From Sphagnum compactum (taxonomy: Eukaryota), in contig OZ234493.1 of the NCBI GenBank assembly GCA_965153455.1, forward strand, positions 10,654,213-10,718,212: DNA of 64,000 bases. The letters run 5' to 3'. Numbering within the stretch: the stretch's first letter is position 1; every line of letters begins with the position of its first letter. A program made the translations under genes and the position numbers. Shown here piece after piece: positions 6,121-20,994 of the stretch. The notes beneath the pieces are model-generated. The model ran no database searches. It was not told the origin of the DNA and worked only from the letters and a program-made list of their open reading frames with translations.

Positions 6121-7452
6121 TCAAACGTTATACCTTTGACTGCTACTGGTTCCTTGTCCAGAGTCTTGCTGCACATACACTGCCTTGAAAAGATGCTCAT
6201 CTAGGTCATAATTCCACTGCCCATTTGAAACAAGAAGTGCCCCCATGCGGCCAATCTCATAGGCTGATTTTGCTGCAGCACCACATCCTCCTGTGGCAAC
6301 ATACAGCTGAGAATCTTCCCCATGCGGTTTCAGATCCACTGCTTGAATGTAGGGATAGTTGTGGGAGGTGTATGTCACCATGCATGGTTTCCTATGGAAG
6401 GATTTGAATGAGATTTGTGGGAGCAGAGTTTGTAGAGTGTCATGCAATGCATCTGTCTCCACTTGGCGACCATTTTCATCATGGAACCAGTCTGTGATTT
6501 CCTTAGTGCTAGAAGCAACCACTGGCTCCCATTCTGTACCCCCTATCTTGATGTACAACTTTCCATCAGGATACCGAATCGGAGGACATAAGTAAACAGA
6601 ATGCAAATAGGGATGTGATTCCAACCTCCAGATGATAGAAGGCATGCCTTGCAACCTCATCTCTTCCTCATCTCCAATTTCTGCAAGCAGCACTGACACA
6701 AGGTACGTGTGCAGGACCAATTCTTGGCCAGGCAACAGCAGATTTGTATATGCATCGGCACAGATCAAAACCTTGGAAGCAGATAACACTTTGCCTGCAT
6801 CAGTGGTGATGTTCACACCATCTGCAGTCATGTCAATTGCTACAACAGTCTCTGGCACAATACAAGCGCCATGTTTTGCAGCAACTGCCAATTGAGCTCT
6901 GGTCATTGCCCGGGGATTCACATAGCCTGCTCCACCATGCTCCATAATGCCTGCATCCTTCTCCTGGAAGTGCAGGTAAGGAAACCTCTTCATGAGTGCA
7001 TCCCCATCCTCCAGAAGCTCTACAGCTGCTCCATTCTCTTTCCCAACTGCGAAAGCCTCCAGCAAGGAGTCGGTGTGTTGCTTGTAAAAAGGGGTGACTC
7101 TCAAAGACCCAACAGAGGAATGGAACTGAATTCCACTTTCTTGCTCACTCTCTCCATAACTTGCAATAGATCGAGCTGCAAGCATCGACCATACAGGGTT
7201 CTTGTCGACAATTCGAGTGAGACGTCCCTCATCGTAATGGGAACCGAAAACCCCTAAATGGGTTGTCAGATCCGCAGGCTCTGGAGCTCCGATTGCAACA
7301 ACAGAAGAAGACTGCCCCTCCCCACGAGCAGTAATAGAATAGTGGGCAGAGAGATGGAGGCATGCTGCTGATCCTATGGGCCCTAACCCTATCACAGCTA
7401 CAGAATACAAAGCGTCGGCTTTCTTCTTTATACCGGGAGCTGCTTCCGCCAT
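6121..7452 (-). CDS. FAD-dependent oxidoreductase, sarcosine oxidase/DAO (MSOX-like) family, 443 aa, intronless
   Basis: Single long ORF. Rossmann motif VIGLGPIGSAA. AGYVNPRAM motif. C-terminal KPCMVTYT (aligns with the MSOX flavinylation Cys region) and ATGGCGAAAKSAYEIG. Confidence 0.92.
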   Translation of the reverse strand: MAEAAPGIKKKADALYSVAVIGLGPIGSAACLHLSAHYSITARGEGQSSSVVAIGAPEPADLTTHLGVFGSHYDEGRLTRIVDKNPVWSMLAARSIASYGESEQESGIQFHSSVGSLRVTPFYKQHTDSLLEAFAVGKENGAAVELLEDGDALMKRFPYLHFQEKDAGIMEHGGAGYVNPRAMTRAQLAVAAKHGACIVPETVVAIDMTADGVNITTDAGKVLSASKVLICADAYTNLLLPGQELVLHTYLVSVLLAEIGDEEEMRLQGMPSIIWRLESHPYLHSVYLCPPIRYPDGKLYIKIGGTEWEPVVASSTKEITDWFHDENGRQVETDALHDTLQTLLPQISFKSFHRKPCMVTYTSHNYPYIQAVDLKPHGEDSQLYVATGGCGAAAKSAYEIGRMGALLVSNGQWNYDLDEHLFKAVYVQQDSGQGTSSSQRYNV

Positions 7453-8706
7453 ATTTTTCTCTTACAAGCCCCCCGAGTGAAACAGCGATACCGAAAACAA
7501 ACGGAACACATCTAGATATGTGGAACCAAAAAACCCATTTCGTGCTCTGAGCGGAGGACCTCTTCAGACCCTTGAACCACCCACAACGGCGGAGAAGATG
7601 TTTTTCCGACAACAGTGGGACCCATTGCAATTAAGATCATCAAAAGAGACAAGTGCGGTATGCAGATCTCCTGCTGCTCCTTGGACATCAGATGCTAGAT
7701 TCAACTGTGGGTACAATAGACTGCGCATTTTCTTTTGTTCAGTGATCTGAATCAGCTATTACAAACCCATCTTACAGCTACAATCACGAAGCAAGCAAGC
7801 ACTATTTGCAGAGCAATCAAGGTCAGGGTTCAGAGTGGAGGAGCATGCCTGCAGTAGTATTTACCTATACCTGCAATATTCACCTGAATCCAACAAAAAG
7901 GTTGATGGTTCTGAAGCTCATAACAAGATCCACAAATGGCTTTCTTTCCACAAAATGCAACCTGTGATCTAAATAAATGCAACCAGAATTTTGACAGACA
8001 GGTTGTTGGTTCAGAAGTTCATAGTAAGTAAGAAAATGGCTTCCACAAAATTACTGTGTTGCTTGCTTGTCCAACACAACACTGCTCTGGCCTGCACATT
8101 CATAGCTGTGACATACATTGGTGACATACTCGTGGGTGAAATAGACATACATTGGTGAAAAGATGCATGTCACAGTTACATACTCACAGTTATTGCAGAA
8201 TGCTGTCTGCTTTCAGCTTAACTAGTAACACAGACTTTTCTACTGACTAAAACAAACATCCTTCAACCTGGCACACTTCCAGAAACATAATTAATATTGC
8301 AAAACTGAGATGATGATTTGAACAGTGAGTAAGGCAAATGAATGAAAATCCCATAAAGGATTATTGTCTTAATTACCAACTAATTTCCCTTATACACCTG
8401 CATCAGGATGACATAAACCACTGCTGTTAGGTTACTTGGTCATTTTAAATGTGACTAGTGGTGTGGATCCTCTAAATCTGCCAAACTCTACTGGTTTTGA
8501 TAGAAGAAAATCTTTGAATAGGATTACTGAATTCCATATGGTTCACCAGGCAGCCTATTTGCCTACAAAACTCTGGACCTGAGTGGAACTCCAAGAGTAG
8601 TTAACAACCCAAAATTGTGTGCTCATGAATACAATTTTCAGAATCAAAATAGGCTCTGAATCCTCTTGCACATTACTATATGCTTCTCTACATGAACAAT
8701 GGTTTC

Positions 8707-9933
8707 TCAATGGCTCTTAACATACTCCTGAATTACATTCAGTCCTTCAGTCTCCTCCCCATAGTCCTGAAAACCCAGCAACAAGGGAATTGCCCCATTC
8801 CACATTTTAGTAACCAACCACAGAATCTGATCAATCAATTCTCCAACTTTGTCACAGTTGGTTCTATAAACTGAATCAAAAGCCAAAAACAGGAAAAACT
8901 TGAACCCAGATGAACACCCCCAAAACTATGTCAAAGAAATTCATACCTTCACAACCACACAAGAACAGCCCACCACCTTGCGAGCCTTGCCCTCTGAATC
9001 AATCTTGCAAAGCTGCACATTACCAACAGAACATAAAGGCTCCTAACAGATGCCTTAAAACAAAAAAGTCGGAGGACTCAACCAGTGGACTATCAATGGG
9101 CTCCCCAGTGCTCAATGCCTTCTTCATTTTAAGACAGTCATCCTCCAATTCTACCCCAAGAGCACAAGTTGATTTGACAACCCTATCTCTCTCACTGGAG
9201 TTCTTCTCATTTCAAGATGCATCAATGACCATGGCTAGTTGAAGTCTGTTTCTCAGTAAAAAAAAGTGGACATTTCCATATATTGCAGTGCAATGAAATG
9301 TGAAGACACAATCCTTAAGTGTACCGGTGATGAGATGGCTTACCCCAACCCATTCACCCAGCTTCTTGGCACTAGGCACAGAGATGAGGTTAACATTGTG
9401 CTCTGAGCAGAGAGCTTGGACCAGCTTAGAATAATCAGGCTGGTTGCAGTCCTCAGCCAAAACACATAGCTGGGCAGCATGCTTCTCAATTGCCTTTGCA
9501 GCCTCATGAAGGCCGCGTGCAAGACCATCATGGGCCAGGGACTTCTTCAACACAAGCTGCAGACCAGTCAGGATATCCATGGGCTCCCCCAATACAGGCT
9601 CAGCTGCGACCACTGGCTTCTCAGCCACTGCATCTGCAACTGGCTCCTCCCTATATATTGCAAACCATTATGGACTTCTTCAATAATAGTATTCTAGAGA
9701 TTTTGAGTTTTTGTGCTCCTAACTAGTACACTGCATATCTATTCATGGTACCATATATTGCATGTCTACTGGCACTGCTCCATATCTGATGAGAACAAAC
9801 TCTCATCTCATGCCTTAGACGTCAGAGAGTTCTTCAACATACAACCCTAAAATCCATTGCTAGAAAAGGTCTGTCCCTAAAGTGGTAAAAAGAGAAAGAA
9901 ACACAAGGAACAAGAACCTTACCCGTCTGACAT
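8707..9933 (-). CDS. RPS12: 40S ribosomal protein S12 (eS12), 147 aa; exons 9933-9923, 9650-9344, 9012-8947, 8766-8707
   Basis: All introns are GT-AG and in phase (11+307+66+60=444 nt). Protein [12 protein letters not shown]...[17 protein letters not shown]...[49 protein letters not shown] 5'UTR intron is probable, with donor CAG|GTCCGT near 10358. Confidence 0.97.
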
Positions 9934-10896: not shown

Positions 10897-13800
10897 TTAT
10901 GTAACTAAGGTAAAAATTAGTTGCATGTGTCGTGTGTAACTAAAATTTAGTTGCAAACAACAATTGTGAAAGACAGATTTTCTACTAAAGTATGTTAATG
11001 TAATTAATTTTTAAAGCCCTTTAATGAATTGGGTTAGTGAAATAAATTCACCTTTTGTAGTAGTGCATGCATTGAACTTTGGAGTTTGAAAAGCAATTTT
11101 TTTTTTGCTTCTACTTCTTTTTGAACTTGAAGTTTGGAGCTAGGAGTTCCAAACCATGGTTAAAGCAAAAAACATTTTCTCTTGACCTCCAAAATTCAGT
11201 GCCAAAGTTTGAGTTAGGAACTTCAAACTTCAAACCACAATTGACAAACAAAAAATTTGGAGGCCAAACTTTGCTCCTAACGCCAAACTTTGGAGGTAGG
11301 GAGCAAATAATTTAATTGCATGTTTGAAACATTACTATGTTTGTGAATTCTTAAATATCGACATATTAGAGACTAGAATGTTGCAAGTTGCAACAATATT
11401 AATTTCTAAAGTGCAACTTGACATAACACTCATTGTCAAGGTTTTTCACTAATCTCAATGTTCACTATTTTTTCTTGTTTACATATTTTAGTTTCCTTTT
11501 AAAGTTTGATCCCACTTGTCTACAAATGTTGAATGTTGGGAATGTTATGCATGTTATTTAAAACCTAAATCTTTAATTTTAATGTTGTGTGAATCCTATG
11601 TGTTTGCAACCTTGAGTTTTATGTGAAGTGCATGTGCGATGTGTTGAAATCTAAACATTTATGTTTATTGTGCATACCTAAGTCATTTTAAGGTTTTGTT
11701 TCTTGATTACAATAGCCTTCAAATTCCAACAATTTTAAGTTATGTCTTTTTTTTAGGTCCTTTGTAGTCACCAATCCTTTTCATAACAATGCAAACCTCA
11801 ATTCTTCAAGCATTTGTTGTGGACAACTATGAATAGTCTTGTTGAATTTTACATTGAACGAATATTGTTGTAGTTTTTTGTTTGTTGTAGTAAATGGCAA
11901 TTCCAACCTTAGGTTTATCTCTCTCTATTTTCAACATTTGTGAACAACCGCAAAAACCCTTGTTAGTCACCAACCATAGTTAATGGATAGTTTGCCAGAT
12001 GAAGAAGAATTACATCATTTACTTATGGACAACTAACCATCAACAAAGTTTGTAATATGTCAATGGAGGAAGAACAATGGATATGAACCATAAGACTAAA
12101 CAATGTAATTGTTTGGAAGGTGATGATAAATTGGGATTCCTTAATGATCTTGCAAAAGCACATTTGAAGATGGTTTGTGCATGAGTGTAAAGCTTGAACT
12201 TGGAGTTTTAAGCTTGGAACTTAAAACTTAATGTGATTTTAATCCACCTACATGGATGAATATGTTCATAGATGAATGATTTCATATGGATGAATTTCAC
12301 TTATGATTTGGATTAAATAAATAAATTATTGATGAAATTCATCCATGATTAAAAGATAAATAAATTGAAATTTATTTATATCCATCCTCATTTGTTGTCC
12401 AACTATTAATATCAAATTTGAATGTCATTTAATAATGATGGATAACTTCGTTAATGGTTCTTAAAATTTTCAAATAACTAGTTTTGATATATAATTGTGG
12501 TTCTCAAAAATTATATACAAAATAAAATAACCACCAAATGACTACCCGTTCTTTGCCAATTTTTTCATGGAAATTATTGGTAGTTTTTAAGGTTTTTGAA
12601 ATAACCAGAATTGGTGATTCTTTGATTTTGAAATAACCTGAACTAGTGATTCAATGATTCTAAAATATTCAAAGAACCAAAATCAGTAGTTCTTTAAAAC
12701 AATCACACAACACTAGTTTGAACTTCTATTTTATGTGGAAAATTTTGGGGTTCTTCTTCTTTTGTTTATGTTATTCCTTCCTTCAATTATGTGTGGAACA
12801 TAAAACATCAACCATTTTTTTTCGTTATATCTTTTGGGCCTTCATTAAGCAAAGATGGAACGAATTACAACACAATGCATTATAGTAATTTTCGGCCGAA
12901 AGAACGTACCCGCCAATTTGGCAACCTAACTTCCACTAGTCGGAAGTTACTCTATAAGTTTTTTTTATAAAATTATCATTCTTTTTTTTTTTAAAATTTC
13001 CTCCTCTTTTTCATTTTTCATTTTTTTATTAGGCCTTGATTTTTTTTAACAACAAATTTAGTCAAAATTGTGACAATGCATTCATTGGGTTTACAAGAAT
13101 GAAAGTCATAAAAAATAATTTAAATGGAATAATTAAATAATTAAATAAAACCCAAGATCAACAAATAAAAAATGAATCTTACTATTTTTCGAAATACTAT
13201 GCTACTTGGATAAAAATGATTAATAGAAAGACTATGGATTAGAACACTTAAAGTGTTCTCTATTTGGATTCCATTCCACCAATCCCCAAAACCCAAGGCA
13301 ATATTCCTAGAAACCATCCTAGAAAACCCAAGGCAACACTCTCAAAAAAATCCAAAAAACCTCCTAGCAATCATAACCCAAAACAATGTTCCAAAAAACA
13401 TTTCAAAAAACCATCACTCAATGCAATGTTCCTAGAAATCCTCCCAATAATAAACCATCACTAGACAATATTGTAAAGAACCCAACATTGATCTCTCAAC
13501 AACCCAAACCCTCAACATTTTCATGAAATCCAGAATTTTATCTTAAACAATCATCCTATCCACATTCTCCCCTAAACCTTTATTATGCAGGTATTACAAA
13601 TACATTCTTACATAACAAAAAACTTCGGAATAATTAAATGATTATAAAAACTATCCAAAAAATTCAAAAAAATTCTATTGAAATAAAAAAAATTCTACTT
13701 ATCAACTATGTCTAGTGGCATTAAACTAAGGATAGATTTTGGATCTACAACATAATTGATGGTAGTAGGTCAGTTTTGAAAATGTTTGAACATGTGGCTA

Positions 13801-14356
13801 GTTTCTTCGTTGGCATTGATAGCCTCAAATGGAGGACGAAAATACATGGCTTGTAATCTGTCATTGTATTTTGGCAAATCCTTTTCAAACAAGTCAATCC
13901 AAAAAATATTTTCAAGGTCAACATTAAATTCACCTTATTCTAATTTTGGTACCTATATGATGGCCTACCCTCGATTTGTGGAAGTAATAGCAAAACAAAA
14001 TATGGTCTTGATTTTTTTTAGATCAATGAAAATAATAGCAATATAAGTGGCAACAAAAGTGACAACAATAGAAATAATAGCACAAGAAGAAACTATATGA
14101 AAGGAGCATTGCAATTGAAGTCACCAATCACATTAATAAGTTGAGAAGTCAACATAACACTAGCAAAACCATCATGGCCAACGTCAATAAAAACTCCCAC
14201 ACAACTAGAAACCATTGTAGATAGAAAAAATCACATCCCCAACATCATCTTCTCAAACATGAAAATTTTAAAGCATAAACCTTGAATCATTTAAAGAAAA
14301 ACAAACAAACTTGCAAATTTTGAAAGTCAAATAAATAACAATGTAAATGAAGTTAC

Positions 14357-16409
14357 CTTGGTTTTTTCAAATGTAGCTTTATCTTCGCTAAATGCTTCTT
14401 CATATCTCAACAAATGGCCATCTTTTAATTCACCATTTATGATTTGTTACATTGCCTTATCACTTAAATGCTTATCAATCTAGTCATATTTACACATAGA
14501 ACAAAAAAAACAACTCAGGCACATCAACAAATGGGGGAAAAAATCAAACAAAACACAAAGCAAATCAAAATAAAAAACAAATATTGAAACAAAACAAACA
14601 ATAGATCAAAAAAAAAGTTAGTACATTAAGTTCCCATATGAAATTGGGTCCATGTGACCCATAACCTCCATACTCTACTCTCAAGGAACCAAAACCTCCT
14701 CCATACAAGTAATGTCAATACCTTTGCCCATTTTGTTAAACAAGAAATTTTCTTTCAATTCAAAAAAGTTAGCAATAAGAATATCCATAATAAGTTGTAG
14801 TTGATTGTGACCAATTGTAGATGTTGTAAACCATACTTGATTTGATGCCTTCCACTTAGGAGTAATGTGTAAGAAAAGTGGATGCAGCCCAAGTTTGTCA
14901 TCACAACACTTGGTAAGATAACACCAAATTAACTCTTTGTAAGTAGAAATGGCATCATCAACATGACAATCAATTGCAAGACGATGGCAATGTGTAAAAC
15001 ATCTAGTGATATCGATGCACTAGTTTTTGAAACTCCTTGACAAAACTTAAGAACAACACCATTAGGTAACGACCATAAAGCAAACTTGTCAAAATCAACA
15101 TTGTGAAGTTCAAAACACCCTTTGATGAAAAAAATGTGAATGTAGAAATATTTGAATATAATATTCAAACCAAATGGATATTTAGGTTAACATATTACTT
15201 GTGCTAACATTCATCATTCCTTTTTGATGGACGACATTTCAAATTTTTTGATAACCTTCCCAAATCCACTCGATAATGATAGATAGTTGCTTCATCCTTT
15301 GGCAACCTTAACCCAATGGTACCTTGATCAAAGAAGATTTTAAACGAAATTCAAATGCCTACCAAATTCAACCACATGTTGCTCTTGCCTTTTCCATATC
15401 ATTTGTCCAATACTTGTTATCAAAGACTGGATGCTACAAAAATAACACAAAGAAAAAATAACAACAAAACACAAATGTTGCAAACAACAGACACCCTAAA
15501 CCCCGCACTAATAACAAAAATAACAAAAACCATAAACCATAGAACCTCTTTCTAAACAAAAGAAAGATTAAGCCTTAAACCCTATTTGCAAACAATAAAA
15601 ACAAAAGGCAAAAACAAGAGCTCAAAATTTTGAAAAAAAAAAAACCTTGTTGGAGGGTATAAGTTAATGGTTTTTTAAAAAAATTGCAGCACAAATGAAA
15701 ATAACATGTCCTCCAAATCTAAAATAAATTATTCATTTTCAAACAAATCTACAATTGATATTTGTAAATCAAAACATTAAAACATTCACCATTCATCAAA
15801 TGCATTATTTGCCCAAAGTTCAACATGTTTACTTGTTCTCTAACCTCCTCAGTTCACATTTGCCATCTTTTTTTTTTATCAATATCCAAAAAACAAGACT
15901 TCGATAATGGCTTCTTAACATGAGGTTCACATTTAGCCCCCTCAATAATGTCAGATCCAAAAATAGCAGGTTCATAGAGCTGCTATGATCAATGTGATCA
16001 AAAGTAAGAACAACCTCATAAACATTTTAAAAATCAAATGTAAAAGCAGAATCATTGGCATCAAAATCTTCAAGACTCGAAAGAATAGAAAGGTCAAAAG
16101 AAAGCACAAACATACCCACATCTCCTTCATGATTCAACTTGGGAGAATTAATAGGAAATTCTATAGGAGATTCATGCAAGTAATTAACATATTACATATA
16201 AATCTCACTTTCATCATTAGACCACAAAAATTCATCACCAAAATTAGTGGTGATTATTGGTGTAAGTAATCCAACAAGAGAGGATCCAAAAGCCTTTAGG
16301 TTTAGCAACTAACTAGGAGGAGTACTTGCAATAGGTAAAGTATCTTTCAAAATTTCAAAACAAGATTTGCAGAACCTTCATTATAAACCTTTTTCATAAT
16401 AGTAGACAT
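14357..16409 (-). pseudogene. Decayed Crypton-like tyrosine recombinase (DUF3504-type) gene with introns
   Basis: Manual translation gives RTSKHVELWANNAFDEW...LEDMLFSFVLQ..KTINLYPPT. A GT-AG intron (15645-15434) follows in frame, then SIQSLITSIGQMI...PKYPFGLNIIFKYFYIHIFFIKGCFELHN...YLTKCC..HPLFLH..VWFTTSTIGHNQL...NKMGKGIDITCMEEVLVP*E*SMEVMGHMDPISYG. An inferred intron (14630-14490) then leads to KYD. Many stops and frameshifts. Confidence 0.8.
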
Positions 16410-16970
16410 TGTTAAAAAAAAAACAAAACAAAAAATGAAAGGAAAAAAAAGAAAAAAATCATTAAAACAAAAAAATAATATAAAATCCAAATGAATTGCA
16501 TCTACACAACATATCAAACAAAAAAACTTTGAAACATGTGAAACCAAAACTAGAACACAACAACTTGCACAAATTAAACAAAGAATTAATGAAACAACCA
16601 AATAATTTCAATAACATAGCAAGACACAAAAAAAACAAAACAATGCAAAAAGAAAGGAAGATGAGAGTAGAATCATAAGAGTGGTGCAAGCAAAATGCGA
16701 AAACAAATGCCATGTCAATGTGATGTAGTTACAACGAACATGAGATGCAAAAACAATCATCATGTCAACACAATGTAAACAAGAAATGTAGAGGTGGATG
16801 GAAATGGCATGATTCAAGTAGACAGACATAGATGTGAACAAAAACGAACACGAAGATACCACATAGATCAAAATAATAATTTGCCAACTCGAAAAATTGA
16901 AAACCCTCACAACGTAATTAACAAAAACAGAAAGGCAAAGCAAAACAAAACCAAAAAATAAAGAGAAAAC

Positions 16971-17790
16971 CCCCTAAAAATTACAAAGAAGCTAACAACG
17001 AACATTGTTGGTGATGATCACTAGTCTAGAAGTCATAACACCAAGTGCAACAACAATGTACCAAACAAAGAACAAGAGAAAGCCAACATTACAATGCAAT
17101 AAAAAAAAAGAACAAAATTAAAACATAACCAAAAATATAAAGAACAAGCTCCCTGAAAATTGCGAAGAAATAAATAGTGAACATTTTTAGTGATAATCAT
17201 CGACACAAAAATCACAACACCAAGCATAACAACAATGCACCAAGTAAAGAAAAAAACAATGCTAACATCACAAAGAGCGAAAGCACAAGAACAAAGTTAA
17301 AAACAAAAACAAAAAAATGAAGGAGTGCCCTAAAAACTAGGAAGAAATAGACAACACCAAGCGTAGTAACATGTCAAAAAAATAAAAATAAATAAACTAC
17401 CATCATGACACAACAAAATCAAAAGAATGAACCTAAAATAAAACAAAAAAAAATGAAGAAGGACCGCGCTAAAGACTAGGAAAAATAAACAACACCAAGC
17501 ACAATAACAACATACCAAGCAAAGAAAAAAAAGAGCTACCCTCACAACACAACAAAAACAAAAAAACAAACCTATAACAAAACAAAACCAAAAGTGAGGA
17601 AAGACTGTTCTAAAAGCTATGAAAAAATAGACAACACCGTGCACAATCGCAACATGCCAAGCAAAGAAAAAAAAAAAGAGATACCATCATGACACAACAA
17701 AAGCAAAAGAACAAACCTAAAACAAAACCCAAAAAAATGAGGAAGAAACACCCCTAAAATTGTGAAGAAGCAGGCAGTGAGCAATGATCT
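16971..17790. repeat. A-rich degenerate tandem repeat, 140-180-bp units, ~6 starts
   Basis: Unit starts (ccctaaaa...gaagaaa...acaacaccaagc) near 16971, 17151, 17328, 17467, 17608 and 17751. Confidence 0.7.
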
Positions 17791-18654: not shown

Positions 18655-20979
18655 TCACACCTCTTCCTGATGGCTGTTGTTGCCATGAATGATGTTATGT
18701 TTGCACAGAGGACATGTGGCATTGATGCGCAGCCACTTATCAACGCAGCTTGCATGAAAGTGATGACCACATGGAATCTCCCGCACCTCCACTTCATCTT
18801 CATACTGAGAGAGGCAGATGCAACATTCCTGCACATCTAACAACTGCAATTCAGAGGTGCTGTCCATTTGGTTGCAGTAAGACAACATCTTAAAAGCACC
18901 AAAACATGATTAGTCCCTCCTAATGTGCAAGTGTGAGGAAAATGCGTTCATCAATACATCACCTCCTTCATCACCAGTAGGTCACTGGACCTGTTATGAG
19001 ATGAGATGTGCAATCAACAAACATATATCTTGACCTAACTACATACCGCATCCTCGCCAGCTATGGCACGCTCAGTCACCCTGTCTGAAGATCCCATCAA
19101 ACTCATCACCCCTGTGAAAGCTCCTGTCTTCACCACAATAGAGTTGTTGCTGCCAGTGCGCCGGAATTTGTACTTATCCAGTGCATTGATCTCTTCCTCT
19201 GATGCACCCTCCTGAGTAAGGGCCAAAACTGGAATGAGTTGGAGAGATAGTCATCTATAGAAAATCCTCAGTGCTTCTACCACATATGAAGATATCTGAG
19301 GCATGCTTCAACATCTCTCCTGGCGTAAACTGCTTTGCAAACTCTGCAAGACATGTTCCAGCATATGCAGACACTGTACCATGCTGCTTCTAGCATCATC
19401 CAAATTTTGAACCAGCAACAAAGTTGCAAGTGATAACAGAGTCTTCATTCAAGCATATGAACTCTTGGGACAGGCATTCGATAAGCTCTCTGAAACTCCA
19501 GAAAGGACAGCACTGCTAGATAGGTGGAATTAGTGACCATGGCCTCATCTCCTTCTATGAAGGAGAAAATCACTGCATCACAGGGAAGACCTAAATCTAT
19601 TACTGGCTATTAAATGTGGAAAAAAATAGAGACATGAATAATTCACCTCTTCAGCAACTGCATAGAGGATGGCAATGATACAGGGGAGGCAACAGCAGAC
19701 AGCAATGCCAATGACAAATGCCAATGCAACGCAGAACACCACAAAGAGCACATCAAATGCCAAAAACACCAAACACAGCCTGCAGATCCAATAAGCAACA
19801 GATCATAAATCACAACAAGAGCAGCCCCCAAATCTATTCTCAGTGCATGTCTAAGGAAATTTCTGAAATAGCTGAAAAATAATTTAACTGCCCCATTAGT
19901 CTATCATCTCCTATTGAAATATTTACTACAGAAGTACTCATCAGAGCTAGGTTGTCAATGGAAGTGAACTCCAACAGAGATGTGGAGGTGTTTGCAGGTT
20001 TCCTCACCAGTAAAGGTATGGAGCCTCATTGATAAGCTCTTCACCTCCAGAAATGATCAAATAGGACCCAAACATCCACCATACAAACGAGAACATGGTG
20101 TTGCCAGACTCCAACCGCTTCACTAAGCTGCATGCCAAAGGTTTCAAAAATGAGAATACAGATCAGAAACTTTCTATAAGTGTGTACCGATTGCCATTCT
20201 AGCTTTTCCACCATTTGCAACTGAGACAGGTGCAATAGGTGCAGCTTGAAAGCATCCCTAGTCCCAAATGGTGAAAATCACCACTGCCAGCTAAATTTGC
20301 TGCATTTGACCAGTATCTGAAATTTTCCAGTAGAGTTAGAAGCAAATTGCGATGAGCATTTGTAAAGAGCACAAGTTTCTCGCATAAATTGGCAAGAGTT
20401 AAAACACCTGGTGTCAGCATTTTCACCACCGGCTGAATCCACAGCCTGCATAGAGTCATGTGATAGGGATGTCTCCACTGGTGTATCAGAAGGTGTAGCA
20501 GCACGCCGCCGACGCCGCCGCCTATACTCCAAGGAGACACAAAGCATGTGCACAATGCATTGCAAAGCATAACCTACAATCCACAAGCGCAATGGCACCT
20601 CGGGTCTCTCATCCCTGCTCAAAATCACCACTGCTGTGGCCACCAGAAGAAATGCTAAATTCCACAGCAGATCCAACAGTACGACTGGCCTGGAGTAAGC
20701 CCAATCATTCTGCCGCTCCTCAAGATGTGCTGCAGCTGATTCACGTACTTGCCTGGATGGCGCCCTGTTGAGCCCCCTGCTCCCTGCCCTCCTCAGGTAC
20801 CTGACAGCTCCTTGAACTCCACTTCCACTACCACCGCTGCTTCCAGTGCCTCTGGTTCTCCCACCCACAAGACTTGAGCTACCAATGTTGGAGATTCCAG
20901 TGCCATCGTTGTCAGTCACTAGGGGTGTTGTGATGAGATCCTCTGAGGAAGAATCAAAGATTACTCTTTCTCTGTCCAT
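18655..20979 (-). CDS. Transmembrane RING-H2 E3 ubiquitin ligase (At1g12760/At1g63170-like), 387 aa; exons 20979-20408, 20127-20008, 19779-19647, 19211-19047, 18828-18655
   Basis: All introns are GT-AG and in phase (572+120+133+165+174=1164 nt). Motifs [66 protein letters not shown], and RING-H2 ECCICLSQY...[25 protein letters not shown]. Confidence 0.96.
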
Positions 20980-20994
20980 ATTTTGGCTGTACTC

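What the first reader, a model, noticed from the sequence alone, without database searches (positions are those of the whole stretch)
14357..16409. Intron-containing Crypton-like tyrosine recombinase relic in a land-plant genome
Seen: minus-strand fragments join across a T-rich GT-AG intron (15645-15434, in frame at YPPT|SIQSL) into a colinear domain. The blocks are ELWANNAFDEW, LFSFVLQ..K...LYPPTS, PFGLN..F.YF...FFIKG..ELHN, YLTK..PLFL, WFTTSTIGHNQL and NKMGK..IT.MEE.LVP...MEVMGH. Known: this order matches the Crypton/DUF3504 (ZMYM/KCTD1/QRICH1-related) recombinase pattern WA..F..W, RK.DG..YPP.T, P.GL...F.LRG..EH, WY...P.G.N.L, NHS.R, TGHRS..SL..Y. Cryptons are described mainly from fungi, stramenopiles and animals, and to my knowledge are not a standard land-plant TE class; fungal ones carry introns. 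Inference: a dead copy of a bryophyte Crypton-like DNA transposon family.
Basis: partly seen in the sequence, partly recalled or inferred. Interest (0 to 1): 0.85.

Follow-up and report, generated by a model that had tools for sequence, protein, structure and literature searches.

The report
Dead Crypton-type recombinase relic in moss
A moss chromosome carries the decayed remains of a gene for a DNA cut-and-rejoin enzyme of the Crypton/DUF3504 kind, described so far from animals and fungi; it is one of many old copies in mosses and liverworts, which extends this jumping-gene family to land plants.

Summary
On the minus strand, about 15893-13719, lies a colinear but dead tyrosine-recombinase (YR) gene. 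It has at least 17 in-frame stops and one frameshift. The GT-AG intron at 15645-15434 is real in form: 212 nt, 57% T, and it joins AG|C into a Ser codon. The same site is used in diverged relatives. I found two further intron positions and a conserved downstream exon.

The relic matches 120 database proteins (best E 1e-21). A profile of that family aligns with a canonical DUF3504 + Phage_integrase protein (hhalign 98.6%, E 1e-15). Intact relatives from Riccia liverworts pass Pfam's DUF3504 threshold.

The host is a bryophyte; the best named match of a neighbouring gene is the moss Ceratodon, at 62%. The family is multi-copy and dispersed. About 10 copies per genome were laid in three related species. 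Eighteen of 18 moss-type metagenome loci are decayed and sit beside different host genes. No RT or RNase H was found.

Termini, target sites and mobility were not shown, so "transposon" remains an inference. Physcomitrium patens has an annotated copy that lacks the catalytic tail and may be domesticated. My searches found no paper describing DUF3504 or Crypton elements in land plants.

Verdict: a new member of a known kind. The relic itself has no function.

The parts
15646..15893 (-). Exon A relic: N-terminal block with ELWANNAFDEW and LFSFVLQ..LYPPT. It ends in phase 2 (ACA AG|).
   Evidence: tblastn with P0123 residues 164-235, E 4e-10, and with P0279, E 1e-8. There are 6 in-frame stops in the homologous part and 8 in the whole stretch. 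tblastx matches to 6 locus groups.
15434..15645 (-). Intron 1: GT...AG, 212 nt, 57% T, phase 2 inside a Ser codon.
   Evidence: The same site and phase carry a gtaagt or gtaact donor in L010 and L017, while L001 reads through without an intron. The P0123 ORF is uninterrupted here, whereas its 74-91% relatives P0278, P0279 and P0281 carry an inserted stretch ending ..LYC|SLQG.
15029..15433 (-). Exon B, first part: SIQSL...PFGLN...FFIKGCFELHN...QGVSK. This holds the box I region, with the Arg replaced by Lys.
   Evidence: tblastn with P0032 residues 85-170. 6 in-frame stops.
14631..15028 (-). Exon B, second part, reached by a 1-base frameshift near 15025: CIDITRC...HPLFL...VWFTTSTIGHNQL...NKMGKGIDITCMEE...MEVMGHMDPISYG. 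It holds the KxxR motif (here KxxK) and the conserved His.
   Evidence: The 112-aa ORF 14681-15019. Pfam DUF3504 E 0.0023. phmmer found 120 hits. tblastn E 3e-25 with P0004. 3 in-frame stops.
14490..14630 (-). Intron 2 relic: 141 nt, about 62% T. It sits between the first two bases of the Lys codon and the codon of the catalytic Tyr. Both splice sites are mutated in this copy.
   Evidence: Intact form in relatives: the donor TAT GGN AA|gtaagt in L005, L006 and L017, and the acceptor tttttgtag|G TAT AAT in L017. The window reads GGGAACTTAATGTAC ... tgtgtAAATATGAC. tblastn shows a 47-residue gap in one frame.
14357..14489 (-). Exon C relic: (K)YD*IDKHLSDKAM*QIINGELKDGHLLRYEEAFSEDKATFEKTK. It contains the catalytic-Tyr codon and the C-terminal helix.
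   Evidence: Colinear with P0032 and P0075. There are 12 residues between KY and Q.II, as in intact relatives. 2 in-frame stops.
13935..14356 (-). Probable intron 3. The donor AAG|GTAACT lies at 14357/14356. The acceptor was not located.
   Evidence: ORFs of intact relatives run out a few residues after the equivalent K|V. This part is inferred.
13719..13934 (-). Conserved downstream block (probable last exon): ..FEKDLPKYNDRLQAMYF...SHMFKHFQN*PTTINYVVD. It belongs to no known family.
   Evidence: tblastx with L017 (49% over 67 aa), L013/L014, L003/L004 and L005/L006. Translations. No Pfam family in 3 of 3 copies scanned.
15894..16409 (-). It may hold the acidic N-terminal region or promoter, but this is unverified.
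   Evidence: No significant protein homology; the best colinear hit has E 15. Contig depth of several copies reaches about 16335 and then drops.

Best explanation
This is a dead, non-functional copy of an intron-bearing gene for a DUF3504-type (CryptonA-like) tyrosine recombinase. It lies in an AT-rich intergenic stretch of a moss chromosome and belongs to an old, dispersed, multi-copy family found in mosses and liverworts. The most likely origin is a Crypton-type DNA transposon. By analogy with Cryptons (a model inferred for these elements, not shown here), the living element would have used its recombinase to excise as a DNA circle and re-insert by site-specific recombination, without reverse transcription. 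That would explain why the spliceosomal introns were copied along with the gene. Shown here: homology, gene structure, decay, copy number and dispersal, absence of RT, and a bryophyte host. Inferred: transposition as the copying mechanism. The active-site set of the family is R..K..K-x-x-R..H..Y, with Lys where recombinases usually carry the first His. The window copy has lost both Arg residues (IKG, NKMGK), has at least 17 stops, one frameshift and two damaged splice sites, so it does nothing now.
For: Homology. phmmer with the relic found 120 hits at E<=1e-3, the best at 1.4e-21. The family profile A1 aligns with P0298 at hhalign probability 98.6%, E 1.3e-15, over 243 columns covering YxPRSL, LRGGQE, SKN, W(Y/F)..PVG.N.L, N(H/K)..R..I(S/T)RM and GH..Y. 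P0298 itself scores 130 bits on DUF3504 and 31 bits on Phage_integrase. P0278 against P0298 gives BLASTP E 6e-14. On Pfam DUF3504, 7 of 10 relatives hit at E<=0.01 and 2 of those 10 exceed the gathering score; P0278 also exceeds it. In the Atlas, P0032 scores 0.97 by features and TM 0.71 by structure against DUF3504/Phage_integrase/QRICH1 clusters of Cnidaria and Mollusca.

Decay. Stops and a frameshift are documented.

Introns. Intron sites are shared by copies that are only 65-78% identical in DNA.

Multi-copy and dispersed. In three species-labelled runs, 97, 118 and 152 contig pieces were laid, most under 90% identical. Depth over the WA..F..W island was about 10 times the single-copy level. 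Eighteen of 18 metagenome loci are decayed. They form about 7 paralog groups with different neighbours, including a kinase and an F-box gene.

Tree. The window falls in a clade with 100/100 support together with decayed moss loci.

No RT, RNase H or other TE domain was found.

Host. The neighbouring FAD-oxidoreductase ORF has its best named match in Ceratodon purpureus (62%), followed by liverworts and lycophytes.
Against: No element termini, terminal repeats, target-site signature, empty site or insertion polymorphism was found. The only flanking inverted repeat, in L003, turned out to be two copies of an unrelated repeat of about 0.8 kb. Every copy for which I hold DNA is dead, and copies appear orthologous between species at 91-97% identity, so recent mobility is not shown. 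Physcomitrium patens has an annotated gene of this family (LOC112277641) that lacks the catalytic C-terminal part. This shows the family can also exist as a host gene. The relic alone is below Pfam's DUF3504 threshold. My own AlphaFold model was poor (pLDDT 63) and gave no Foldseek match at E<=0.001.
Confidence: 0.7

Rival explanations
1. The relic is a pseudogene of a host (domesticated) DUF3504-type gene family. In this reading the copies arose by ordinary gene, segmental or whole-genome duplication in early mosses and then decayed, and no transposition occurred in land plants.
For: P. patens LOC112277641 is an annotated multi-isoform gene of this family without the K-x-x-R, H and Y part. 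Some models fuse it to a Coilin_N domain. Several conserved spliceosomal introns give it a host-gene look. Copies are old and shared between species. No termini were found.
Against: At least 8 dispersed paralog lineages, all decayed, sit beside unrelated neighbours. About 10 or more copies per genome were laid. Intact relatives such as Riccia P0032, P0278 and a clade of 14 intact ORFs keep the full catalytic set, as expected for a working recombinase and not for a regulatory domain. Riccia copies lie on several chromosome-size contigs.
Confidence: 0.2
2. The relic is a fragment of a DIRS/Ngaro-type tyrosine-recombinase retroelement that has lost its RT part.
For: DIRS-like elements also carry a YR. 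An inverted repeat flanks the copy in L003.
Against: No RT or RNase H was found by Pfam on either strand of window 11-20 kb or on L017. No long ORFs of that kind occur in the loci. The protein is of DUF3504 type. Introns are retained at the same sites in diverged copies. The L003 repeat is an unrelated 0.8-kb repeat that is also polymorphic between L013 and L018.
Confidence: 0.03
3. The relic is foreign DNA: contamination, or a very recent transfer from an animal or a Glomeromycota fungus living on the moss.
For: DUF3504 recombinases are described from animals and Glomeromycota, and the latter colonise bryophytes (PMC13465315, section 5).
Against: The relic lies between plant genes on one contig. 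It is present at 91-100% identity in runs of three species labels. It has T-rich plant-type introns and is heavily decayed. An ancient transfer into bryophytes is not excluded.
Confidence: 0.02

Closest known systems
CryptonA elements and DUF3504-type tyrosine recombinases of animals (Kojima and Jurka 2011, PMC3212892; I saw the search listing and passages only)
   Same: The domain order and motifs are the same: WA..F..W, Y.P(R)SL, LRGG.E, SKN, W(Y/F)..PVG.N.L, N.x.R..I(S/T)RM, GH...Y with Tyr at His+9. It is a single recombinase gene with no RT.
   Different: The host is a land plant. Lys replaces the first His of HxxR in 22 of 22 aligned family members. There are up to three plant-type introns and an extra conserved downstream exon of no known family. 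Element ends are unknown.
Glomhoppers: DUF3504-encoding CryptonA elements of Glomeromycota (PMC13465315; I read the abstract, sections 5 and 6, and passages)
   Same: Both are DUF3504 recombinases outside animals. Both have many truncated or intron-containing copies, sit in repeat-rich DNA, and are multi-copy.
   Different: Glomhoppers keep the His and Tyr and about 25% of copies are intact. Here every copy with DNA in hand is dead. No phylogeny against Glomhoppers could be made because no sequences were at hand.
Domesticated DUF3504 genes of animals (ZMYM2/3/4, QRICH1, KCTD1, KIAA1958; PMC3212892 abstract)
   Same: The fold and family are the same: the best PDB sequence match of the family profile is QRICH1 (9hjt) at E 0.17, and the Atlas structure matches ZMYM2-like/QRICH1 and KCTD1 clusters. 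The P. patens member lacks catalytic residues and is joined to another domain (Coilin_N) in some models.
   Different: The window copy is not a conserved intact gene. It is a pseudogene with at least 17 stops.
DIRS1/Ngaro tyrosine-recombinase retrotransposons
   Same: They encode a tyrosine recombinase.
   Different: They carry RT and RNase H and characteristic terminal repeats. None was found here.
Fungal Cryptons (CryptonF; Goodwin and colleagues 2003, recalled, not read here)
   Same: These are intron-containing YR genes in a DNA transposon without long terminal inverted repeats (recalled).
   Different: They belong to a different YR lineage (not DUF3504) and have a GCR1_C-type DNA-binding domain (recalled).

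Membership tests
DUF3504-type (CryptonA-like) tyrosine recombinase, protein family | Significant sequence homology to DUF3504 recombinases across the catalytic domain | tested here: met
   The relic links to its family at E 1.4e-21 to 6e-19. The family profile links to P0298 (DUF3504 130 bits, Phage_integrase 31 bits) at hhalign 98.6%, E 1.3e-15. P0032, P0054 and P0278 are above the Pfam gathering score. The relic alone scores 18.4 bits against the cut-off of 29.7.
DUF3504-type (CryptonA-like) tyrosine recombinase, protein family | Catalytic set R-K-H-R-H/W-Y | tested here: inconclusive
   The family has R, K, K-x-x-R, H and Y (at His+9). Lys stands in place of the first His in 22 of 22 rows (A1) and 21 of 21 rows (A2). 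Whether this set is active is untested. The window copy has both Arg residues changed to Lys and many stops, so it is inactive.
Crypton DNA transposon (element level) | The recombinase is the only enzyme; no RT or RNase H | tested here: met
   Pfam read-through scans of window 11-20 kb on both strands and of L017 on the sense strand found no such domain. These scans are weak on decayed sequence: they also missed DUF3504 itself.
Crypton DNA transposon (element level) | Several dispersed copies in one genome | tested here: met
   (97 to 152 contig pieces per run; about 10-fold depth over the conserved island). (about 7 paralog groups with different neighbouring genes).
Crypton DNA transposon (element level) | Defined element ends, recombination site, and empty or filled sites | tested here: inconclusive
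   Only low-complexity repeats were found around the relic. No shared boundaries were found between paralog groups. Whole genomes were not available.
DIRS/Ngaro retroelements | RT and RNase H linked to the YR | tested here: not met
Domesticated DUF3504 host gene (ZMYM/QRICH1/KCTD1-like) | An intact, conserved open reading frame at a syntenic locus | tested here: not met
   The window copy has at least 17 in-frame stops and a frameshift. Its divergence between species, 7-9%, is similar to that of the flank, 12%. The P. patens member may meet this feature, but that was not tested.

The most novel reading that the evidence does not exclude
Bryophytes harbour their own lineage of CryptonA/DUF3504 recombinase elements, with a Lys-for-His active site and plant-type introns, and three things may be true of it. 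First, it may still be alive in some species: intact copies with a full catalytic set exist in Riccia and in unnamed assemblies, and one ORF looks like the precisely spliced form of its intron-bearing relatives. Second, it may have reached land plants by horizontal transfer involving animals or the Glomeromycota fungi that colonise bryophytes. Third, it may have been domesticated independently in Physcomitrium as a catalytically truncated gene linked to coilin, which would be a plant parallel to ZMYM, QRICH1 and KCTD1.
Probability: 0.2. Interest if true: 0.8.

Novelty: new member of a known kind. Interest (0 to 1): 0.55.

Why it matters
In the passages I read, Kojima and Jurka 2011 list only Chlamydomonas under plants, and the Glomhopper paper calls DUF3504 proteins widespread in Opisthokonta, with fungal ones mostly in Glomeromycota. 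Neither mentions a land plant.

A bryophyte family therefore widens the host range of this transposon class. It offers a test of cross-kingdom transfer between bryophytes and their fungal partners. It also supplies a natural active-site variant (KxxR) for enzymology. Finally, it points to a possible plant case of recombinase domestication in Physcomitrium.

For genome annotation, it explains a class of unclassified repeats in moss genomes. The single relic in this window has no function of its own.

Tried and rejected
Whole genome of the window: none is held, so copy counts and element ends could not be taken from an assembly.

RNA: no RNA holder was listed. In the one RNA run laid (X22, about 12% of it read), only 20 reads touched the 4-kb stretch, all partly, and 19 of 20 were under 90% alike. 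That gives no support for transcription or splicing of this copy, and no evidence against it either.

Structure: the AlphaFold2 model of P0032 with the 22-row alignment was poor (pLDDT 63, pTM 0.28). Foldseek against the PDB gave 0 matches at E<=0.001. Eleven of the first 14 listed were tyrosine recombinases, but at TM of about 0.2, which is not usable.

Word-indexed protein searches: the one with the family alignment gave only 9 hits, and the one with P0123 gave 5. They are therefore poor guides to the family's range.

Loci searches: the search for related loci with the broad alignment A2 failed for lack of a conserved stretch; the narrower A3 worked. The genome search cannot reach metagenome loci.

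Terminal repeats: only low-complexity matches were found. The inverted repeat around the L003 copy is an unrelated repeat of about 0.8 kb.

Other checks: the downstream conserved block has no Pfam family. N-terminal homology upstream of 15893 is not significant. Earlier findings of the scan held nothing on this genome or this protein.

Literature: 'Crypton' with 'tyrosine recombinase' and 'plant' gave 69 papers, 20 listed. 'Crypton' with 'moss' gave 89 papers, 25 listed, mostly word-start matches such as Cryptoniscidae. 'DUF3504' gave 19 papers, all listed. A badly designed six-term search was useless. Judged by titles and abstract starts, none describes these elements in land plants.

Not seen: the supplementary files of PMC3212892 and PMC13465315 could not be read and may list plant hits.
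Full report
**What is there.** The minus strand between about 15893 and 13719 carries a colinear series of coding remnants in three frames (three-frame translation).

tblastn with relatives found later maps the remnants as follows:
- 15872-15651 aligns with residues 164-235 of P0123.
- 15279-15022 aligns with residues 85-170 of P0032.
- 15028-14636 and 14480-14348 align with residues 169-348 of P0032.

The remnants hold 6 in-frame stops in the homologous part of the first block, 6 in the second, 3 in the third and 2 in the fourth. There is also one frameshift near 15025. The gene is dead.

**The intron.** The stretch 15645-15434 begins GT and ends AG, is 212 nt long and 57% T. It joins AG to C to make a Ser codon. 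The joined product LYPPT-S-IQSLITSIG is colinear without gaps with LYPPRSLQGLLRALG of P0123 and LYPPVSLQGLFRGIG of the Riccia fluitans protein P0075.

The same site and phase carry a canonical donor in diverged copies: ACT AA|gtaagt in L010 and ATT AA|gtaact in L017. The L001 copy reads straight through.

P0123 is an uninterrupted ORF at this point. Its 74-91% identical relatives P0278, P0279 and P0281 have an inserted stretch there that ends ..LYC|SLQG. The simplest reading is that P0123 is the precisely spliced or intron-less form of an intron-bearing gene. This is an inference from protein sequences; I did not see the DNA.

**Two further introns.** A second T-rich spacer, about 14630-14490 (141 nt), separates ..ISYG + AA from A + TAT. 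That places it inside the Lys codon just before the catalytic Tyr codon.
- In L005, L006 and L017 the donor is TAT GGN AA|gtaagt.
- In L017 the acceptor is tttttgtag|G TAT AAT.
- Splicing would therefore give SYGKYN.., colinear with SYAKYIQ.. of intact relatives.
- In the window both splice sites are mutated.

A third donor, AAG|GTAACT, follows ..EKTK at 14357/14356. The ORFs of intact relatives all run out a few residues after the equivalent K|V.

About 430 bp further on, a block at 13934-13719 (..FEKDLPKYNDRLQAMYF..SHMFKHFQN..INYVVD) is conserved in four other paralog groups. It matches no Pfam family.

**What family it is.**
- The 112-aa ORF alone hits Pfam DUF3504 at E 0.0023, below the gathering score; 6 of 7 pieces hit nothing.
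- A 131-residue read-through found 120 proteins at E<=1e-3 and 27 at E<=1e-10 among 1.84 billion representatives.
- Of 10 relatives scanned, 7 hit DUF3504 at E<=0.01 and 2 exceed the gathering score. P0278 does too.
- The profile of 22 family members aligns with P0298 at hhalign probability 98.6%, E 1.3e-15, over 243 columns. P0298 is an unnamed eukaryotic protein scoring 130 bits on DUF3504 and 31 bits on Phage_integrase.
- The ESM Atlas places the Riccia sorocarpa member P0032 with DUF3504/Phage_integrase/QRICH1 clusters of Cnidaria and Mollusca, at feature score 0.97 and structural TM 0.71.
- The best PDB sequence match of the profile is QRICH1, but only at E 0.17.
- My own structure model was too poor to use.

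**Active site.** Against P0298 (LRGGQE, SKN, NHSLR, SGH, Y at His+9) the bryophyte family shows IRGGQE, NKN, NKTGR, TGH and KY at His+9. The only systematic change is Lys for the first His of HxxR, in 22 of 22 and 21 of 21 aligned rows.

I recall that type IB topoisomerases carry Lys at the equivalent place. That is memory, not a test. The window copy has IKG and NKMGK, so both Arg residues are replaced.

**Host.** The intronless ORF 6124-7449 (minus strand), a FAD-dependent oxidoreductase, has its best named matches in these species:
- Ceratodon purpureus, 62%.
- The liverworts Riccia, Calypogeia and Marchantia, 56%.
- The lycophyte Diphasiastrum, 55%.

A RING-H2 domain lies at about 18700-18831 on the minus strand. 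A run labelled moss metagenome holds a small share of the stretch. The window therefore comes from a bryophyte, most likely a moss distant from Ceratodon.

**Copy number and dispersal.** Three species-labelled DNA runs were laid at 80% likeness or more and gave 97, 118 and 152 contig pieces on the 4-kb stretch; 72, 75 and 116 of these were under 90% alike. Over the WA..F..W island (15792-15927) the summed depth is about 10 times that of single-copy contigs.

One contig of organism B covers 13828-16261 with 79 differences. Contigs of organism C cover 13716-15055 and 15030-16842 with 7-12% differences, and one continues beyond the stretch. The simplest reading is that these are orthologous copies, so the relic predates these species.

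A pattern scan of JGI metagenome contigs gave 18 confirmed loci out of 468 pattern matches. All 18 carry stops or frameshifts in the homologous region.
- They fall into about 7 groups.
- Groups are 65-78% identical to each other and to the window.
- Within groups identity is 90-99.9%, flanks included.
- Neighbouring genes differ: a 1038-aa kinase-like ORF in L006 and an F-box ORF in L010.

In a maximum-likelihood tree of 37 domain sequences, the window sits in a 9-row clade with 100/100 support, together with L003, L005, L017, L018 and four unnamed fragments. Intact ORFs form another group of 14 rows, and the Riccia proteins are scattered. I dropped four near-duplicate loci, L004, L006, L008 and L015. 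L013 and L014 were also left out, because their domain pieces fell under the 90-residue cut-off.

**Named relatives.** I looked up names for 25 proteins.
- Species names came only for Riccia sorocarpa, Riccia fluitans and Physcomitrium patens.
- Further R. sorocarpa members lie on other chromosome-size contigs.
- The P. patens gene LOC112277641 (41% identity to P0123) ends after ..PVGKNKF..LPDR and so lacks K-x-x-R, His and Tyr.
- UniProt models join it to a Coilin_N domain.
- In L010 and L011 a Coilin_N ORF lies about 3 kb downstream of the relic. I did not follow this up.

**Transposon or not.** Several observations favour a Crypton-type DNA transposon over a retroelement or a chance pseudogene:
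- No RT, RNase H or other TE domain was found by Pfam on either strand of 11-20 kb or on L017.
- The loci contain no long TE ORFs.
- Retention of introns at identical sites in dispersed, diverged copies fits copying as DNA.
- The family is multi-copy and dispersed.
- Intact relatives keep a full catalytic set.

However, I found no termini, target-site signature or empty sites. The inverted repeat around the L003 copy is an unrelated repeat of about 0.8 kb. It is present in five of the locus groups and is polymorphic between L013 and L018. The host-gene-family alternative therefore keeps about one chance in five.

**Literature.** Kojima and Jurka 2011 list Chlamydomonas as the only plant in the passages I saw. 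The 2026 Glomhopper paper states that DUF3504 proteins are widespread in Opisthokonta and that fungal ones are mostly in Glomeromycota (sections 5 and 6). Searches for Crypton with plant, Crypton with moss, and DUF3504 alone listed no paper on land plants. I could not read the supplementary files.

**Verdict.** The relic itself is inert. The value lies in the family: a DUF3504/CryptonA-type recombinase lineage in bryophytes, which is a new member of a known kind.

Noticed in passing
window 6121-7461 (-): An intronless 446-codon ORF for a FAD-dependent oxidoreductase (Pfam PF01266, sarcosine-oxidase-like). After bryophyte and lycophyte homologues (48-64% identity), the next matches are Caldilineaceae and other bacteria at about 50%. 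It is a candidate old bacterial gene in early land plants.
   Followed up: no
window 16920-17745: An A-rich tandem array (T-rich on the relic's strand), period 139/284 bp, about 4 copies at 73-77% identity. It lies about 1 kb upstream of the relic.
   Followed up: no
L003:2292-3239; L006:6642-7300 and 8707-9576; L010:2198-3094; L011:1438-2316; L018:2055-2876: A repeat of about 0.8 kb is shared by five of the locus groups at 68-77% identity. In L018 it is an insertion that is absent from the otherwise 92-94% identical L013. It looks like a separate small mobile element of these mosses.
   Followed up: partly
L013:2324-8032 versus L018:4646-10322: The 5.7-kb segment that contains the recombinase relic is inverted relative to its flank between two contigs that are 91-94% identical. 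This may be a real inversion or an assembly artefact.
   Followed up: no
Physcomitrium patens LOC112277641 (P0280, P0286, P0289); L010:13449-13925 and L011: The annotated P. patens family member lacks the catalytic C-terminal part and is fused to a Coilin_N domain in some gene models. In another moss contig a Coilin_N ORF lies about 3 kb from a decayed family copy. This may reflect a conserved neighbourhood or a domestication.
   Followed up: partly
window 13719-13934 (-); L017:6125-6325; L013:6553-6714: A conserved downstream coding block of the family (..LPKY(K/N)DRL..IN.N..SH.F.H.QNCP..INYVVD) matches no Pfam family. Its role is unknown.
   Followed up: partly
window 13286-13444: Four direct copies of a unit of about 34 nt, spaced 35-50 nt apart, at 65-79% identity to the reference copy. 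They lie downstream of the relic.
   Followed up: no
window 9212-9667 (-) and 18700-20994 (-): Flanking host genes. One is an ORF that I recall as resembling ribosomal protein S12e; this was not tested. The other is a RING-H2 protein gene (Pfam zf-RING_2, E 2e-14) with a probable membrane-spanning N-terminal ORF at 20278-20994.
   Followed up: no
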